From: Escherichia coli
GTDB taxonomy: Bacteria; Pseudomonadota; Gammaproteobacteria; Enterobacterales; Enterobacteriaceae
Assembly: GCF_003018115.1 (NCBI RefSeq)
Contig: NZ_CP027457.1
Length of the DNA stretch: 64,000 bases
Strand: one strand, 5' to 3'
Positions 5,349-52,098 of this stretch are shown here, piece after piece. The notes under the pieces were generated by a model. That model was not told where the DNA came from, ran no database searches, and saw nothing but the letters and a program-made list of their open reading frames with translations. Position 1 is the stretch's first letter, and the number at the start of each line of letters is the position of its first letter. Position numbers and translations under genes: made by a program.

Positions 5349-8045
5349 TTACTGCCAGCCGTAACGACGGCTATAGAACCCTTTCACCAACTGGGTTAAT
5401 GTCATATACCCTGCCAGAATCGCAACCAGCCACGGGAAATAGCTTAACGGCAACGCCTGTAATTGCAGATAACTGGCCAGCGGTGAAAACGGCAATGCGA
5501 TCCCGACAATCATCACGATCACGGTCATGATCATTAACGGCCACGATGCACAGCTCTGAATAAACGGCACACGGCGGGTGCGGATCATATGCACAATCAG
5601 CGTTTGCGACAGTAAGCCCACCACAAACCATCCCGACTGGAACAGCGTTTGCGTTTCCGGCGTGTTGGCATGGAATACCCACCACATCAGGCAAAACGTC
5701 AAAATATCGAAGATCGAGCTGATCGGTCCGAAGAAGATCATAAAGCGCCCCAGATCCGCCGGATTCCAACGCTGCGGCTTTTGAATTTGCTCGTCGTCGA
5801 CGTTATCAAACGGGATCGCCACCTGTGACACATCGTACAGCAGGTTCTGAATAAGCAAGTGTAACGGCAACATCGGTAGGAAGGGCAAGAAAGCACTCGC
5901 TACCAGCACGCTGAACACATTACCGAAGTTAGAGCTCGCCGTCATTTTGATGTATTTCAGCATGTTGGCGAAAGTGCGACGTCCCTCAATAACCCCCTCT
6001 TCCAGCACCATCAGGCTTTTTTCCAGCAGGATGATATCAGCCGCTTCACGGGCAATATCTACCGCGCCGTCCACAGAAATGCCGATATCCGCAGCGCGTA
6101 AGGCGGGCGCATCATTAATACCATCGCCCATAAAGCCAACCACATGCCCTTCGCGCTTCAGTAAGGTCACAATGCGTTCTTTATGCATCGGCGTCAGGCG
6201 GGCAAACAGCGTGGTGCGCTGTGCAAGATTTGCCAGTTCGTCGTCAGATAGCGTTTCAATATCACTACCAATGACCACCTCTCCCGCGTCCAGCCCCACT
6301 TCATGGCACACTTTCGCTGCAACTAACTCACTGTCGCCAGTAAGGATTTTTACGGTAATTCCACTCGCTTTTAATGCCTTCAGTGCCGGAGCGGTTGTCT
6401 CTTTTGGCGGATCAAGGAAAGCAATATATCCTTCGAGGATCAGGTCGGATTCATCCGCCCGCTGGTAATCTCCTTCACGCGCTGGCAGGTATTTCGTCGC
6501 CACCGCAACCACGCGCAGCCCCTGACGATTCAGCGTATCAGTAACCCGCTTAATCTTACGCAGCATGATGTCATCGAGCGGCACAATCTCGCCATTGTGA
6601 CGCACCTGCGAACACACATTGAGGATTTCCTGCAATGCACCTTTGCAAACCAGCTGATGGTGCTCGGTATTTTCTGCCACTACCACCGACATCCGGCGAC
6701 GCTCGAAATCAAACGGAATCTCATCGATTTTTTGCCAACGACTGGCCAGCGAGCGCGCTGACTCTTCATCCGTACCTTCGAGCACCGCTGTATCGAGCAG
6801 GTTTTTAAGTCCGGTCTGATAATGACTGTTCAACCACGCGCTATGCAGCACGCGTTCGCTGGTTTTACCGGAGATATCGGTATGATTCTCCAGCACAATT
6901 TTATCCTGTGTCAGGGTGCCGGTTTTATCAGTGCACAGAATATCCATTGCGCCAAAGTTCTGAATGGCATCCAGATGTTTGACGATCACTTTCTGTTTCG
7001 ACAGCTTTACTGCGCCGCGCGCCAGCGTCGAGGTAACAATCATCGGCAACATTTCCGGCGTTAGGCCTACCGCGACCGAAAGCGCAAACAGCGCCGCTTC
7101 CCACCAGTCGCCTTTGGTGTAGCCATTGATTAACAGCACCACCGGTGCCATCACCAGCATAAAGCGAATCAGCAGCATACTGACGCGGCTGATCCCTTGC
7201 TGAAAGGCATTCGGCTCGCTTTCCTGCTCACTAACACGCCCCGCCAGTTGACCAAACCAGGTATTGGCACCTGTAGCAATCACCATTGCTTGTGCCGTGC
7301 CGCTCACCACGGTGGTGCCCATAAAACACAGCGTGTCGCACTCCAGCGGATTGCTGTGCTCCGGCTGGCGAGTGGTAGCGGCTTTTTCCACGGGCAGAGA
7401 CTCACCGGTTAACGACGCCTGAGCGACGAACAGATCCCGCGCCTGCAAGATACGTAAATCTGCCGGGATCATATCTCCCGCCGCCAGTTTTATAATATCG
7501 CCGGGCACCAGCTGGTCGATCGGGATCTCCAGCCAGCCATTTTCGCCTTTGTCGTTAATTACGCGCAGCACCGTCGCGGTATTGCTGACCATCGCTTTCA
7601 GGGCATCTGCCGCTTTAGTGGAACGTGCTTCCTGAATAAAGTTCAGCAACGTAGAAATAGCGACCATTAGCGCGATAACGCCCGCAGCAAATAAATCTTC
7701 CGTGGCGTAAGAAATAGCGCCGAGAATGGTGAGTAAAATATTAAAGGGGTTGCGATAGCAGACCCATAAATGTACCCACCACGGCGACGGTTGTTGTGCG
7801 GGTAATTTATTTTCACCATGTTGTTCGCGGGCAGATTCCACTTCCGCCTGATTTAACCCTTCCGGATGGGTGTCGAACGTTTTCCACAATTCTTCTTCGG
7901 GCATCACCGCCATTTTCAGGCAATGCGCACTTAAGGACGGCGGGACCACCGTATTCACTGTCTGCTGCGCGCCAGGCAATGGATCACGATGAACCAGACG
8001 GGAAGGTAAATGGCGAATGAGCCGGGTAAAAATTTCTTTAAACAT
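5349..8045 (-). CDS. mgtA: Mg2+-importing P-type ATPase
   Basis: 898-aa ORF with P-type ATPase motifs (DKTGTLT, TGDS, GDGINDAPAL). Confidence 0.95.
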   Translation of the reverse strand: MFKEIFTRLIRHLPSRLVHRDPLPGAQQTVNTVVPPSLSAHCLKMAVMPEEELWKTFDTHPEGLNQAEVESAREQHGENKLPAQQPSPWWVHLWVCYRNPFNILLTILGAISYATEDLFAAGVIALMVAISTLLNFIQEARSTKAADALKAMVSNTATVLRVINDKGENGWLEIPIDQLVPGDIIKLAAGDMIPADLRILQARDLFVAQASLTGESLPVEKAATTRQPEHSNPLECDTLCFMGTTVVSGTAQAMVIATGANTWFGQLAGRVSEQESEPNAFQQGISRVSMLLIRFMLVMAPVVLLINGYTKGDWWEAALFALSVAVGLTPEMLPMIVTSTLARGAVKLSKQKVIVKHLDAIQNFGAMDILCTDKTGTLTQDKIVLENHTDISGKTSERVLHSAWLNSHYQTGLKNLLDTAVLEGTDEESARSLASRWQKIDEIPFDFERRRMSVVVAENTEHHQLVCKGALQEILNVCSQVRHNGEIVPLDDIMLRKIKRVTDTLNRQGLRVVAVATKYLPAREGDYQRADESDLILEGYIAFLDPPKETTAPALKALKASGITVKILTGDSELVAAKVCHEVGLDAGEVVIGSDIETLSDDELANLAQRTTLFARLTPMHKERIVTLLKREGHVVGFMGDGINDAPALRAADIGISVDGAVDIAREAADIILLEKSLMVLEEGVIEGRRTFANMLKYIKMTASSNFGNVFSVLVASAFLPFLPMLPLHLLIQNLLYDVSQVAIPFDNVDDEQIQKPQRWNPADLGRFMIFFGPISSIFDILTFCLMWWVFHANTPETQTLFQSGWFVVGLLSQTLIVHMIRTRRVPFIQSCASWPLMIMTVIVMIVGIALPFSPLASYLQLQALPLSYFPWLVAILAGYMTLTQLVKGFYSRRYGWQ

Positions 8046-8185
8046 AAGGAGTCCCTCCGCACTGTCTGAAACAGTACAGAAATGTCTTCAGGCGTGGCGA
8101 AGCCTTACCTGAAGGTAATAAAGCTGAGCAGGGACGTTAAAACGTCACGGCCTTACGCATCCGGTAACGCCGTGAAAAGACGGGC
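8046..8185 (-). promoter_or_regulatory. mgtA 5' leader segment between mgtL and mgtA (Mg2+/proline-responsive attenuation region)
   Basis: Untranslated stretch between the mgtL stop and the mgtA start; assignment from established knowledge of the mgtA leader. Confidence 0.5.
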
Positions 8186-8239
8186 TTACCGGAAAAGTTT
8201 TAATCTCCGTCGAGGGAGAGGCGTGGGATCAGGTTCCAT
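8186..8239 (-). CDS. mgtL: mgtA leader peptide (proline-rich)
   Basis: 17-codon [20 protein letters not shown] about 140 nt upstream of mgtA on the same strand; it is the 3' end of a longer spurious track ORF. Confidence 0.7.
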
Positions 8240-8423
8240 ATAACCTCCGGTAAGTGAAAAAAGCGCCGCAAATAATAAGGAGAATCCAATAATATTCGTA
8301 GCATCTATGGCGATATAATACCTGCTGGCAACTAAACCAACGATAAACCAGACTTTACCCATTGCTGAATGCACGGGTAAAGTTAGGCTCAAATAATTAA
8401 ACAACACGTTACGGGACAACAGG

Positions 8424-9371
8424 ATGCAAAATCGGCTGACCATCAAAGACATCGCGCGCTTAAGCGGCGTGGGGAAATCTACGGTTTCCCGGGTGCTGAA
8501 TAACGAAAGCGGCGTGAGCCAGCGTACGCGCGAGCGTGTTGAAGCAGTGATGAATCAGCATGGATTTTCCCCTTCCCGTTCTGCACGCGCTATGCGTGGG
8601 CAAAGCGATAAAGTGGTCGCCATCATTGTCACCCGTCTGGATTCGTTGTCAGAAAATCTCGCCGTTCAAACCATGCTGCCAGCGTTCTATGAACAAGGTT
8701 ACGATCCAATCATGATGGAAAGTCAGTTTTCCCCGCAATTAGTTGCCGAACATTTGGGGGTGCTGAAACGGCGTAATATCGACGGCGTAGTGCTGTTCGG
8801 TTTTACCGGCATAACAGAAGAAATGTTAGCCCACTGGCAGTCATCGCTGGTTCTGCTGGCGCGTGACGCAAAAGGCTTTGCTTCGGTCTGTTATGACGAC
8901 GAAGGGGCAATCAAGATCCTGATGCAACGGCTGTATGACCAGGGGCATCGTAATATCAGTTATCTCGGCGTGCCGCACAGTGACGTGACGACCGGTAAGC
9001 GACGTCACGAAGCCTACCTGGCGTTCTGCAAAGCGCATAAACTGCATCCCGTTGCCGCTCTGCCAGGGCTTGCTATGAAGCAAGGCTATGAGAACGTGGC
9101 AAAAGTGATTACGCCTGAAACTACTGCGTTACTGTGCGCAACCGACACGCTGGCACTTGGCGCAAGTAAATACCTGCAAGAGCAACGCATCGACACCTTG
9201 CAACTGGCGAGCGTCGGTAATACACCGTTAATGAAATTCCTCCATCCGGAGATCGTCACCGTAGATCCCGGTTACGCCGAAGCTGGACGCCAGGCGGCCT
9301 GCCAGTTGATCGCACAGGTAACCGGGCGCAGCGAACCGCAACAAATCATCATCCCCGCCACCCTGTCCTGA
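8424..9371 (+). CDS. treR: trehalose operon repressor (LacI family)
   Basis: 315-aa ORF with N-terminal LacI-type HTH (TIKDIARLSGVGKSTVSRVLN). Confidence 0.9.
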   Translation: MQNRLTIKDIARLSGVGKSTVSRVLNNESGVSQRTRERVEAVMNQHGFSPSRSARAMRGQSDKVVAIIVTRLDSLSENLAVQTMLPAFYEQGYDPIMMESQFSPQLVAEHLGVLKRRNIDGVVLFGFTGITEEMLAHWQSSLVLLARDAKGFASVCYDDEGAIKILMQRLYDQGHRNISYLGVPHSDVTTGKRRHEAYLAFCKAHKLHPVAALPGLAMKQGYENVAKVITPETTALLCATDTLALGASKYLQEQRIDTLQLASVGNTPLMKFLHPEIVTVDPGYAEAGRQAACQLIAQVTGRSEPQQIIIPATLS

Positions 9372-18408: not shown

Positions 18409-18512
18409 TGCCGGATGCGGTGCACCTGTAGGCCTGATAAGACGCATCAAGCGTCGCATCAGGCACTATGCTCAAATGCCGGATGCGGCGTGAACGCCTT
18501 ATCCGGCCTACG
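18409..18512. repeat. REP/BIME cluster (three REP units)
   Basis: Repeated GCCGGATGCGG / GTAGGCCTGATAAGACGC units between yjgA and mpl. Confidence 0.7.
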
Positions 18513-51376: not shown

Positions 51377-51790
<414 letters not shown>

Positions 51791-52098
51791 TTATTCAGCC
51801 TCCTGTCTGGGTCAGCCGAATCCCGGGGAGGCAAGGAACGTGTTAAAGGTCGGCTGAAAAATGACGCGTTATAGTACTGACATACCCCGCTAAACTCAAG
51901 GCCAGCCGACAAATAAATCTCATCTTTCACCAAAGTGGACTAACACGCTGATTTGAAGTTCATCACACTTCATCATGGTGTTTTTTTGAACAACTGCATC
52001 AGAAATGGTCACCATCAACTTCCTTATCATTGATTAAAATTAAATCAGAAGATCATCACAGAGGAGAGCACACAAAGTCAGCCGTCGAGGAGGTATCT

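What the first reader, a model, noticed from the sequence alone, without database searches (positions are those of the whole stretch)
8186..8239. Proline-rich leader ORF mgtL upstream of mgtA
A 17-codon ORF with 4 prolines and 3 consecutive arginines ([17 protein letters not shown]) lies in the long mgtA leader. It is buried as the C-terminal tail of a longer spurious ORF in the six-frame track, so would be missed by length-based calling. It is the known translation-coupled sensor for the mgtA attenuator.
Basis: partly seen in the sequence, partly recalled or inferred. Interest (0 to 1): 0.2.

Follow-up and report, generated by a model that had tools for sequence, protein, structure and literature searches.

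The report
E. coli mgtL leader peptide gene
This is the well-known 17-codon leader gene mgtL of Escherichia coli: how far ribosomes get along it decides whether the magnesium-pump gene mgtA downstream is transcribed, so the finding is correct but ordinary and already annotated.

Summary
Window 8239..8186 (minus strand) reads ATG...TAA and translates to [17 protein letters not shown]. It is the in-frame tail of an 88-aa mechanical ORF. The DNA is 100% identical to E. coli chromosomes, and RefSeq annotates mgtL at exactly these bases, between treR and mgtA. Rfam's Magnesium-II leader element (RF01056) matches full length at 8254-8139 with 125.8 bits against a cut-off of 40. Upstream lies a perfect PhoP box, and mgtA (TIGR01524) starts 194 nt after the mgtL ATG. 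In 26 species of Enterobacteriaceae the ORF is kept at 15-17 codons with only 3n indels, and mgtA follows wherever enough sequence is held. Three invariant CCGG/UAA segments can form either stems A and B or the alternative stem C. The mgtL stop codon lies inside the shared middle segment, and stem B shows covariation. Published work shows that full mgtL translation at high Mg2+ gives premature, Rho-linked termination. Ribosome drop-off or stalling at EPDP and the Pro codons at low Mg2+ or low proline lets transcription continue into mgtA. Novelty: already known.

The parts
8186..8239 (-). mgtL, a 17-codon leader ORF ([17 protein letters not shown]) with stop TAA at 8188-8186. The EPDP motif is codons 2-5 (8236-8225). 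The Pro codons are at 8233-8231, 8227-8225, 8221-8219 and 8215-8213.
   Evidence: Translation. RefSeq mgtL lies at identical coordinates. The ORF is kept at 15-17 codons in 26 species.
8244..8248 (-). Shine-Dalgarno GGAGG of mgtL, 4 nt before the ATG. It lies inside the 5' arm of stem A.
   Evidence: Sequence. It is invariant in all 27 aligned sequences.
8139..8254 (-). Rfam RF01056 Magnesium-II element (the Mg2+-responsive mgtA leader core), covering stem-loops A and B with mgtL inside A.
   Evidence: 125.8 bits against a gathering score of 40, E = 2e-26, model positions 1-115 of 115.
8185..8254 (-). Stem-loop A. The 5' arm CUUACCGGAGG (8254-8244) pairs with the 3' arm UUUCCGGUAAG (8195-8185). 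It encloses all of mgtL, and two small inner hairpins pair 8238-8236 with 8226-8224 and 8219-8215 with 8208-8204.
   Evidence: Folds (-21.6 kcal/mol) and the Rfam structure line. 97% of cells are paired across species, and the 8 core pairs never vary.
8145..8175 (-). Stem-loop B (8175-8164 pairs with 8156-8145), present in the 'OFF' conformer.
   Evidence: -16.5 kcal/mol, z = -3.8; 5 of 12 pairs change on both sides, 20 compensatory cells, 0 of 500 shuffles reach this.
8160..8193 (-). Alternative stem-loop C (8193-8186 pairs with 8167-8160; inner pairs 8183-8180 with 8173-8170), the 'ON' conformer. It uses the 3' arm of A, including the mgtL stop codon, and the 5' arm of B, so it excludes both.
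   Evidence: -18.0 kcal/mol, z = -4.6, 0 of 200 shuffles fold as well. Every one of the 27 sequences folds it at -13 to -19 kcal/mol. 89.6% of cells are paired, against 20-47% for slid controls.
8333..8349 (-). PhoP box GGTTTA-TCGTT-GGTTTA, about -42 to -26 relative to the inferred TSS. A likely -10 hexamer TATTAT lies at 8320-8315.
   Evidence: the only zero-mismatch match in 64 kb. PhoQ/PhoP control of the mgtA promoter is stated in PMC11552253. The -10 hexamer and the TSS are inferred.
8046..8307 (-). The whole mgtA 5' leader (about 262 nt). The TSS is placed at about 8307 +/- 1, because PMC11552253 numbers GUAAGGCCGUGA (window 8156-8145) as nt 152-163.
   Evidence: for the numbering; the 264-nt segment 8309-8046 folds at -87.3 kcal/mol, z = -4.3. 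The leader is 100% identical to MG1655.
8057..8114 (-). Downstream leader hairpins D (8114-8086) and E (8079-8057). The Rho-associated Term-seq 3' end at 8094 (-49 from the mgtA ATG) lies in D. The mgtA SD GGAGG is at 8058-8054.
   Evidence: 6 pairs with compensatory change across 19 species. PMC7815308 supplement 3, mapped through.
5349..8045 (-). mgtA, the regulated gene: a Mg2+-importing P-type ATPase of 898 aa.
   Evidence: TIGR01524 at 1607 bits against a cut-off of 611. RefSeq annotation.

Best explanation
This is mgtL, the leader-peptide gene of the E. coli mgtA mRNA. It works as a translation-coupled switch on premature transcription termination. Transcription starts at a PhoP-activated promoter near 8307. 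Ribosomes load on the GGAGG at 8248-8244 while the leader is still being made. The switch lies in three invariant segments: CUUACCGG (8254-8247), CCGGUAAG (8192-8185, which contains the mgtL stop codon) and a third segment at 8168-8161, which reads CUUACCGG in most species and GUUACCGG in this window. The middle segment can pair with the first to make stem A, leaving the third free to make stem B. Alternatively it can pair with the third to make stem C. When Mg2+ and prolyl-tRNA are plentiful, the ribosome reads through the EPDP and Pro codons to the stop codon. There it covers the middle segment, so stem C cannot form and stem B does. In this OFF conformer a Rho entry site is exposed, and transcription ends about 49 nt before the mgtA ATG. 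When cytoplasmic Mg2+ is low, or proline is scarce or osmolarity is high, the ribosome falls off or stalls within the first six codons. That leaves the middle segment free, stem C forms, Rho is kept off, and RNA polymerase continues into mgtA. SHOWN HERE: the ORF, its SD, its identity to annotated mgtL, the Rfam match, the PhoP box, the three mutually exclusive hairpins with the stop codon in the shared segment, their conservation, covariation in stem B, the absence of an intrinsic terminator, and mgtA downstream in every species with enough sequence. FROM THE LITERATURE: Mg2+ and proline dependence, ribosome destabilisation at EPDP, the effects of bL31 and EttA, and Rho involvement. INFERRED: the ribosome-footprint logic and the exact TSS.
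For: Identity:
- The region is 100% identical to E. coli chromosomes, with mgtL annotated at the same bases.
- The leader is identical to MG1655.
- RF01056 matches full length at 125.8 bits.
- MgtA and TreR flank it.
- A perfect PhoP box lies upstream.

Coding:
- 26 species keep a 15-17 codon ORF behind an invariant CTTACCGGAGG.
- Every indel inside the ORF is 3 or 6 nt, whereas the spacer just downstream has 1-, 2- and 3-nt gaps.
- In codons 1-12, 7 of 12 third positions vary, against 1 of 12 first and 1 of 12 second positions. First and second positions of codons 1-10 were fixed by my search pattern, so this is only partly independent.
- The Rfam seed consensus shows the same 3-nt periodicity on its own evidence.

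Switch:
- Stems A, B and C fold at -21.6, -16.5 and -18.0 kcal/mol and are present in all 27 sequences.
- Stem B has 5 covarying pairs.

Mechanism from the literature:
- PMC11552253 describes A+B at high Mg2+ and C at low Mg2+, with efficient mgtL translation repressing mgtA.
- PMC12360218 covers Rho-dependent attenuation.
- bioRxiv 10.1101/2021.02.02.429294 and PMC11282234 show that E. coli MgtL translation aborts within MEPDPT, more so at low Mg2+. They also report a toeprint with Pro3 in the P site, and that an E2Q/D4N mutant abolishes mgtA reporter expression.
- Term-seq plus bicyclomycin in MG1655 finds a 3' end 49 nt before the mgtA ATG, in a significant Rho region (Rho score 1.56) with an intrinsic-terminator score of 1.46.
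- My scan finds no intrinsic terminator.
Against: - In E. coli, ChIP-qPCR with the Rho R66S mutant gave a Rho termination score of 1.0 at mgtA. The authors suggested that E. coli may terminate without Rho, or that this allele does not affect this terminator (PMC5499598). The Rho review therefore notes 'may not be conserved in E. coli'.
- Stem A sequesters the mgtL SD in the very conformer linked to efficient mgtL translation. That works only if ribosomes load co-transcriptionally (PMC11552253).
- In vitro, Mg2+-dependent RNA folding alone modulates Rho termination in Salmonella (cited), so translation is not the only input.
- Stems A and C are invariant, so covariation gives no evidence for or against them.
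- The rut site was not located here. C-rich stretches (leader nt 71-100 and 171-200 when counted from 8309) are only candidates.
Confidence: 0.9

Rival explanations
1. The leader is mainly a direct Mg2+-sensing riboswitch. Mg2+ binds the RNA and stabilises stems A and B, and mgtL is secondary: it adds only proline or osmotic sensing, or is a by-product of the C-rich RNA.
For: Rfam files the element as a 'Magnesium riboswitch aptamer'. PMC11552253 reports structural probing that shows two Mg2+-dependent conformers. [quoted passage not shown] PMC8346122 concludes that both mechanisms probably cooperate.
Against: The ORF is kept in frame with 3n-only indels across genera. This argues that translation is selected, not incidental. 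Mutating the acidic residues of EPDP or deleting bL31 or EttA changes mgtA expression, which an RNA-only sensor does not predict. The two models do not exclude each other.
Confidence: 0.25
2. In E. coli, unlike Salmonella, premature termination or loss of transcript in the mgtA leader does not depend on Rho. It could instead come from a long pause followed by RNase processing, or from another factor. mgtL would still set the RNA conformation.
For: The Rho R66S ChIP-qPCR score at E. coli mgtA is 1.0, even though RNAP occupancy drops (PMC5499598). An abundant 3' end at window 8180, 5 nt past stem A, looks like a trimmed or processed product.
Against: Bicyclomycin-based DirectRNA-seq flags the 3' end at -49 as lying in a significant Rho termination region (Rho score 1.56). 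No intrinsic terminator is predicted (Term-seq intrinsic score 1.46). The R66S authors themselves say the allele may simply not affect this terminator. PMC11552253 and PMC11282234 treat E. coli mgtA as Rho-regulated.
Confidence: 0.12
3. MgtL is a small protein that acts in trans, for example on MgtA or on the membrane, and its cis effect on the leader is secondary.
For: Nothing found here supports it directly. Other Mg2+-regulon small proteins are known (my own knowledge: MgtS, MgtR).
Against: The C-terminal half varies freely in sequence and length (LKLFR, IFLFR, TVSR, NNR and others). The final Arg codon is dictated by the invariant CCGG of the RNA switch. Translation frequently aborts within six residues. 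All published effects are in cis.
Confidence: 0.02
4. It is a chance ORF in a structured, C-rich RNA and is not translated.
For: Short ORFs are very common: one search lists 115 of at least 20 aa in 8 kb.
Against: The SD is invariant and the frame is preserved with 3n-only indels in 26 species. RefSeq and EcoCyc annotate it. Published toeprints, peptidyl-tRNA detection and mgtL-yfp and mgtL-lacZ fusions exist for E. coli.
Confidence: 0.01

Closest known systems
E. coli K-12 mgtL (b4702) and the mgtA leader (Rfam RF01056, Magnesium-II / Mg2+-responsive element)
   Same: The peptide and leader sequence are identical (0 differences from about 8307 to 8046). The neighbours treR and mgtA, the PhoP box, the SD and stems A, B and C are all the same.
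   Different: Nothing inside the element differs. Within 7970-8470 the window differs from MG1655 at four bases (8450, 8413, 8381, 8328), all upstream of the TSS.
Salmonella enterica mgtL and mgtA leader
   Same: The architecture and switch segments are the same. The N-terminal M-[D/E]-P-[D/E]-P-T-P-L-P-R is shared, and mgtA lies about 206 nt after the mgtL ATG. This is where most of the mechanism (proline, Mg2+, Rho, pausing) was worked out.
   Different: The two Salmonella subspecies found read MDPEPTPLPRWR(I/V)FLFR: RWR instead of RRR, and a different C-terminal half. Stem B carries compensatory substitutions (G-C in E. coli, U-A in Salmonella, and similar). Rho dependence is firmly shown in Salmonella but has been questioned once in E. 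coli.
corL and the corA leader (E. coli and Salmonella)
   Same: A uORF sits inside two mutually exclusive leader conformers, uORF translation promotes Rho-dependent termination, and the response is to Mg2+.
   Different: corL has a UUG start and only one conserved proline. The corA promoter does not depend on PhoP, and the sequence family is different. I did not examine corL here.
Classical ribosome-mediated attenuators (trpL, hisL, pheL and others) and tnaC
   Same: The position of a ribosome on a short leader ORF selects between alternative RNA pairings, or masks a rut site as in tnaC, and so decides whether the operon is transcribed. This rests on established knowledge; the leader-peptide list is.
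   Different: trp-type attenuators end in an intrinsic terminator hairpin followed by a U-tract, and none is present here. The signal in MgtL is proline decoding and Mg2+-dependent ribosome stability at EPDP, not starvation for a run of cognate codons.

Membership tests
MgtL leader peptide (RefSeq 'mgtA regulatory leader peptide MgtL', WP_001387276.1; b4702) | A 17-aa ORF with the sequence [17 protein letters not shown], or a close variant beginning M-[D/E]-P-[D/E]-P-T-P-L-P-R. | tested here: met
   One search gives the exact sequence. The DNA is 100% identical to records where mgtL is annotated at the same bases. The peptide is too short for the HMM tools, so membership rests on sequence identity.
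MgtL leader peptide | It lies in the 5' leader of mgtA, on the same strand, and has its own Shine-Dalgarno. | tested here: met
   The mgtA ATG is 194 nt after the mgtL ATG. GGAGG lies 4 nt upstream. The same arrangement holds in 25 of 25 other loci with enough sequence.
MgtL leader peptide | It is actually translated, and translation is sensitive to Mg2+ and proline. | not testable with these tools
   Literature only: toeprints, peptidyl-tRNA and reporter fusions for E. coli mgtL (PMC11282234; bioRxiv 10.1101/2021.02.02.429294). Indirect support here comes from frame conservation and 3n-only indels.
Rfam RF01056 Magnesium-II (mgtA Mg2+-responsive leader) | The covariance-model score is above the curated gathering threshold over the full model. 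| tested here: met
   125.8 bits against 40, model positions 1-115 of 115, E = 2e-26. The hit is reproduced in the whole-window scan.
Rfam RF01056 Magnesium-II (mgtA Mg2+-responsive leader) | Two mutually exclusive conformers exist: stems A and B against stem C. | tested here: met
   All three hairpins are predicted with z-scores from -2.5 to -4.6 and are present in 27 of 27 sequences. C overlaps the 3' arm of A and the 5' arm of B. B shows covariation. A and C are invariant, so for them covariation says nothing.
Rfam RF01056 Magnesium-II (mgtA Mg2+-responsive leader) | Mg2+ binds the RNA directly and shifts the conformer equilibrium. | not testable with these tools
   Reported for Salmonella and still debated (PMC11552253).
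PhoP-activated promoter | A direct repeat (T/G)GTTTA-N5-(T/G)GTTTA overlaps the -35 region. | tested here: met
   GGTTTATCGTTGGTTTA at 8349-8333(-) has zero mismatches and is the only such site in 64 kb. Its position relative to the TSS (about -42 to -26) is inferred from the numbering.
Rho-dependent leader attenuator | Premature 3' ends in the leader are relieved by Rho inhibition, and there is no intrinsic terminator. | tested here: inconclusive
   No intrinsic terminator is found. The published MG1655 data conflict: a 3' end at -49 lies in a significant bicyclomycin-sensitive region, but the Rho R66S ChIP score is 1.0.
Classical trp-type attenuator (considered, not filed under) | An intrinsic terminator hairpin followed by a U-tract forms when the leader peptide is fully translated. 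| tested here: not met
   The scan of 7900-8500 finds 0 terminator-like sites. The Term-seq intrinsic score is 1.46, below 3.

The most novel reading that the evidence does not exclude
The abundant short transcript that ends at window 8180, about 128 nt from the TSS and 5 nt past stem A (7758 Term-seq reads, class 'primary, mgtL'), might be more than attenuation debris. It could be a stable leader-derived RNA with a trans-acting role, such as an sRNA or a sponge, like other 5'-UTR fragments described in the same Term-seq study. Separately, E. coli may end leader transcripts by a route that is not strictly Rho-dependent.
Probability: 0.05. Interest if true: 0.45.

Novelty: already known. Interest (0 to 1): 0.05.

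Why it matters
It matters only as a check on the first-stage scan. Biologically, mgtL is a textbook case of a nascent peptide and a ribosome acting as a sensor for Mg2+ and proline, coupled to transcription termination. Nothing in this window departs from the E. coli K-12 element, so it adds no new biology.

Tried and rejected
I relied on exact DNA identity to annotated records instead.
- The sigma-70 promoter scan found nothing in 7900-8500. This fits a PhoP-dependent promoter that lacks a -35 hexamer, so I searched for the PhoP box directly.
- The intrinsic-terminator scan found nothing, so I rejected the trp-type attenuator reading.
- I first assumed a 264-nt leader with its TSS at 8309, from memory of the Salmonella leader. 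I revised this to about 8307 using the nucleotide numbering in PMC11552253.
- I tried to read Park 2010, Gall 2016 and Hollands 2012 (PMC2967377, PMC5206563, PMC3325659). None is held, so the rut-site coordinates could not be transferred. The C-minus-G profile gives only candidates.
- The genome scan used a pattern that fixed the first two positions of codons 1-10. The conservation of the N-terminal decapeptide in my set is therefore circular, and I do not count it as evidence. ORF length, stop position, 3n indels, SD, stems and synteny were not imposed by the pattern.
- The predicted helix between GUCCCU (8135-8130) and the mgtA SD region (8056-8051) was not retained by RNAalifold, so I leave it as a passing note.

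Full report
OBSERVATION. On the minus strand, window 8239-8186 reads ATG GAA CCT GAT CCC ACG CCT CTC CCT CGA CGG AGA TTA AAA CTT TTC CGG TAA. It translates to [17 protein letters not shown]. The mechanical ORF list shows it as the in-frame tail of 8186..8452(-), 88 aa, so the 'buried in a longer spurious ORF' remark is also right. A GGAGG Shine-Dalgarno lies at 8248-8244, 4 nt before the ATG. A 17-codon ORF proves nothing by itself, since one search lists 115 ORFs of at least 20 aa in 8 kb. The case rests on what follows.

IDENTITY. A 551-nt query around the ORF is 100% identical to several E. coli chromosomes. At least 80% of it is present in 5423 of 5426 complete E. coli genomes, and the features under the match are treR, mgtL and mgtA. 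In NZ_CP024269.1 the annotated mgtL CDS (WP_001387276.1, 'mgtA regulatory leader peptide MgtL') maps base for base to window 8239-8186, and mgtA maps to 8045-5349. The same holds for MG1655: mgtL is b4702 at 4467431-4467484 and the mgtA ATG is at 4467625. Within 7970-8470 the window differs from MG1655 at only four bases, all upstream of the transcription start. The 898-aa ORF downstream scores 1607 bits on TIGR01524, magnesium-translocating P-type ATPase. The divergent 315-aa ORF at 8424-9371(+) is TreR, TIGR02405. Rfam RF01056, the Magnesium-II Mg2+-responsive mgtA leader, matches 8254-8139(-) over its full length with 125.8 bits against a gathering score of 40, E = 2e-26 (reproduced).

PROMOTER AND LEADER LIMITS. 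The generic sigma-70 scan finds nothing. A perfect PhoP box, GGTTTA-TCGTT-GGTTTA, lies at 8349-8333(-), and it is the only zero-mismatch match in the 64-kb window. PMC11552253 numbers GUAAGGCCGUGA as nt 152-163 of the E. coli mgtA 5' region. That string is window 8156-8145, so the transcription start is at about 8307 +/- 1. This puts the PhoP box at roughly -42 to -26 and a TATTAT hexamer (8320-8315) at the -10 position; both placements are inferred. The leader is therefore about 262 nt, 8307-8046.

ANATOMY OF THE SWITCH. Folding the leader gives -87.3 kcal/mol, z = -4.3. The core contains three hairpins:
- Stem-loop A pairs 8254-8244 with 8195-8185. It encloses all of mgtL, sequesters the mgtL SD in its 5' arm, and folds at -21.6 kcal/mol.
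- Stem-loop B pairs 8175-8164 with 8156-8145 and folds at -16.5 kcal/mol, z = -3.8.
- The alternative stem-loop C pairs 8193-8186 with 8167-8160, plus an inner helix. It folds at -18.0 kcal/mol, z = -4.6, and none of 200 shuffles folds as well.

C uses the 3' arm of A and the 5' arm of B, so it excludes both. The design comes down to three segments: CUUACCGG, CCGGUAAG and a third that reads CUUACCGG in most species and GUUACCGG here. The middle one can pair with either neighbour, and the mgtL stop codon UAA (8188-8186) lies inside it. A ribosome that reaches the end of mgtL therefore physically occupies the segment that stem C needs.

COMPARATIVE EVIDENCE. A codon-degenerate mgtL pattern found 26 loci among the species-representative genomes: Escherichia, Salmonella, Citrobacter, Kosakonia, Leclercia, Superficieibacter, Pseudescherichia, Enterobacter and two MAGs. 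The pattern fixed the first and second positions of codons 1-10, so conservation of M-[D/E]-P-[D/E]-P-T-P-L-P-R in this set is circular, and I do not count it. The following features were not imposed by the pattern:
- Every locus has an ORF of 15-17 codons preceded by an invariant CTTACCGGAGG.
- All indels inside the ORF are 3 or 6 nt, while the non-coding spacer just downstream has 1-, 2- and 3-nt gaps.
- Third codon positions vary in 7 of 12 codons, and the Rfam seed consensus shows the same 3-nt periodicity on independent evidence.
- mgtA follows on the same strand 194-307 nt after the mgtL ATG in all 25 loci with enough sequence, and treR lies divergently upstream in most.

The C-terminal half of the peptide is free to vary (LKLFR, IFLFR, TVSR, NNR and others). 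The 'three consecutive arginines' are RWR or RGR in most genera, so RRR is not a conserved feature. The final Arg is dictated by the invariant CCGG of the RNA switch.

On the alignment, the A+B structure is 97.3% paired, against 36-49% for slid controls. Stem B has five pairs with changes on both sides (20 cells; 0 of 500 shuffles reach this). Stems A and C are built from invariant bases. They are conserved (89.6% paired for C against 20-47% slid), but covariation cannot speak for or against them. Each of the 27 sequences can fold all three hairpins. The downstream leader also carries two conserved hairpins, D at 8114-8086 and E at 8079-8057, with six pairs showing compensatory change.

MECHANISM. 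The following comes from papers, not from my tools.
- E. coli mgtA is driven by a PhoQ/PhoP-dependent promoter and is further controlled by its 5' region. That region adopts stems A and B at high Mg2+ and stem C at low Mg2+.
- Efficient mgtL translation represses mgtA. Inefficient elongation, caused by the prolines and acidic residues, gives high mgtA expression (PMC11552253).
- In E. coli the EPDP motif right after the initiator Met destabilises the translating 70S ribosome, so translation aborts within MEPDPT. This is stronger at low Mg2+ and without bL31 (bioRxiv 10.1101/2021.02.02.429294).
- EttA counteracts the drop-off. A toeprint places Pro3 in the P site, and an E2Q/D4N mutant raises mgtL reporter expression and abolishes mgtA reporter expression (PMC11282234).
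- In Salmonella, stalling at the Pro codons when proline is limiting favours the stem-loop that masks the Rho entry region, whereas complete translation exposes it (PMC5021804; PMC12360218).

Putting the anatomy and the literature together gives the following model. Full translation places the ribosome on the CCGGUAAG segment, so stem C cannot form, stem B forms, Rho gains access, and transcription terminates. Early drop-off or stalling leaves that segment free, so stem C forms and transcription reads through into mgtA. The footprint reasoning is my inference.

WHERE TRANSCRIPTS END IN E. COLI. Term-seq in MG1655 reports two 3' ends in this leader (PMC7815308 supplements), which I mapped through. 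One is at window 8180, 6 nt after the mgtL stop and 5 nt past stem A. The other is at window 8094, 49 nt before the mgtA ATG and about leader nt 214. The second has a Rho score of 1.56, is flagged as a significant Rho termination region, and has an intrinsic-terminator score of 1.46, below the cut-off of 3. This agrees with my scan, which finds no intrinsic terminator, and with termination near leader position 220 reported for Salmonella. The one dissenting result is a ChIP-qPCR study with the Rho R66S allele. It gave a score of 1.0 at E. coli mgtA, and its authors offer two readings: Rho-independent termination, or an allele that does not affect this terminator (PMC5499598). I therefore mark Rho dependence in E. 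coli as likely but not settled. I also keep direct Mg2+ sensing by the RNA as a cooperating mechanism rather than an excluded one.

COMPARISON AND VERDICT. This is not merely similar to mgtL. It is E. coli mgtL with its leader, identical to the K-12 element. It differs from trp-type attenuators in lacking an intrinsic terminator, and in what is sensed: ribosome stability at EPDP and proline decoding, rather than starvation at a run of cognate codons. Novelty: already known. Interest is low (0.05). The only loose ends are literature-level questions: Rho dependence in E. coli, RNA sensing versus translation sensing, and the fate of the abundant 128-nt leader fragment. The sequence itself raises no new question.

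Noticed in passing
window 8180 (-): MG1655 Term-seq reports an abundant 3' end (7758 reads, class 'primary, mgtL') 6 nt after the mgtL stop codon and 5 nt past the base of stem A. This implies a stable leader fragment of about 128 nt. Whether it is a trimmed termination product or has a role of its own is unknown.
   Followed up: partly
window 8130-8135 and 8051-8056 (-): The single-sequence fold pairs a near-invariant GUCCCU with AGGGAC, which overlaps the mgtA Shine-Dalgarno (GGAGG at 8058-8054). That would add translational masking of mgtA. RNAalifold did not keep this helix across 19 species, and some genera have a different SD context.
   Followed up: partly
window 8057-8114 (-): Two hairpins in the distal leader (D at 8114-8086, E at 8079-8057) are conserved, with six compensatory pairs. 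The Rho-associated 3' end at 8094 falls just before the 3' arm of hairpin D.
   Followed up: partly
L008, L015, L027 (Kosakonia sacchari, K. oryziphila, MAG CTSoil_132): In these genomes the distance from the mgtL ATG to the mgtA start is 303-307 nt, against 194-212 nt elsewhere. That means about 100 nt of extra leader sequence, whose content I did not examine.
   Followed up: no
alignment A1 / loci L002-L027, MgtL codons 11-17: The RRR of E. coli MgtL is RWR or RGR in most other genera, and the C-terminal half varies in sequence and length (15-17 aa). E. albertii, E. whittamii and Escherichia sp. E1V33 have RWR followed by the E. coli-type LKLFR tail.
   Followed up: yes
window 8328 (-): There is a single-base difference from MG1655 (C here, T in K-12) in the spacer between the PhoP box and the putative -10 hexamer of the mgtL-mgtA promoter. 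Three further differences lie at 8381, 8413 and 8450. Some other E. coli genomes match the window 100%.
   Followed up: partly
window 39027-39043 (+) and 45414-45430 (+): Two PhoP-box-like direct repeats with one mismatch each. Three matches in all were found in the window against about 1.0 expected, and 8 of 100 shuffles reach three, so these two are probably chance.
   Followed up: no
window 38453-38575 (-), 51770-51854 (-), 18431-18508 (-), 33824-33881 (+), 33702-33744 (+): The whole-window Rfam scan at gathering thresholds also finds ES239 sRNA, the RpsF leader, naRNA4 (CssrE), STnc450 and ES036 (CssrF).
   Followed up: no
E. coli genome collection: The mgtL region matches three places on plasmids, and 1 of 5426 complete E. 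coli genomes has no match. I examined neither.
   Followed up: no
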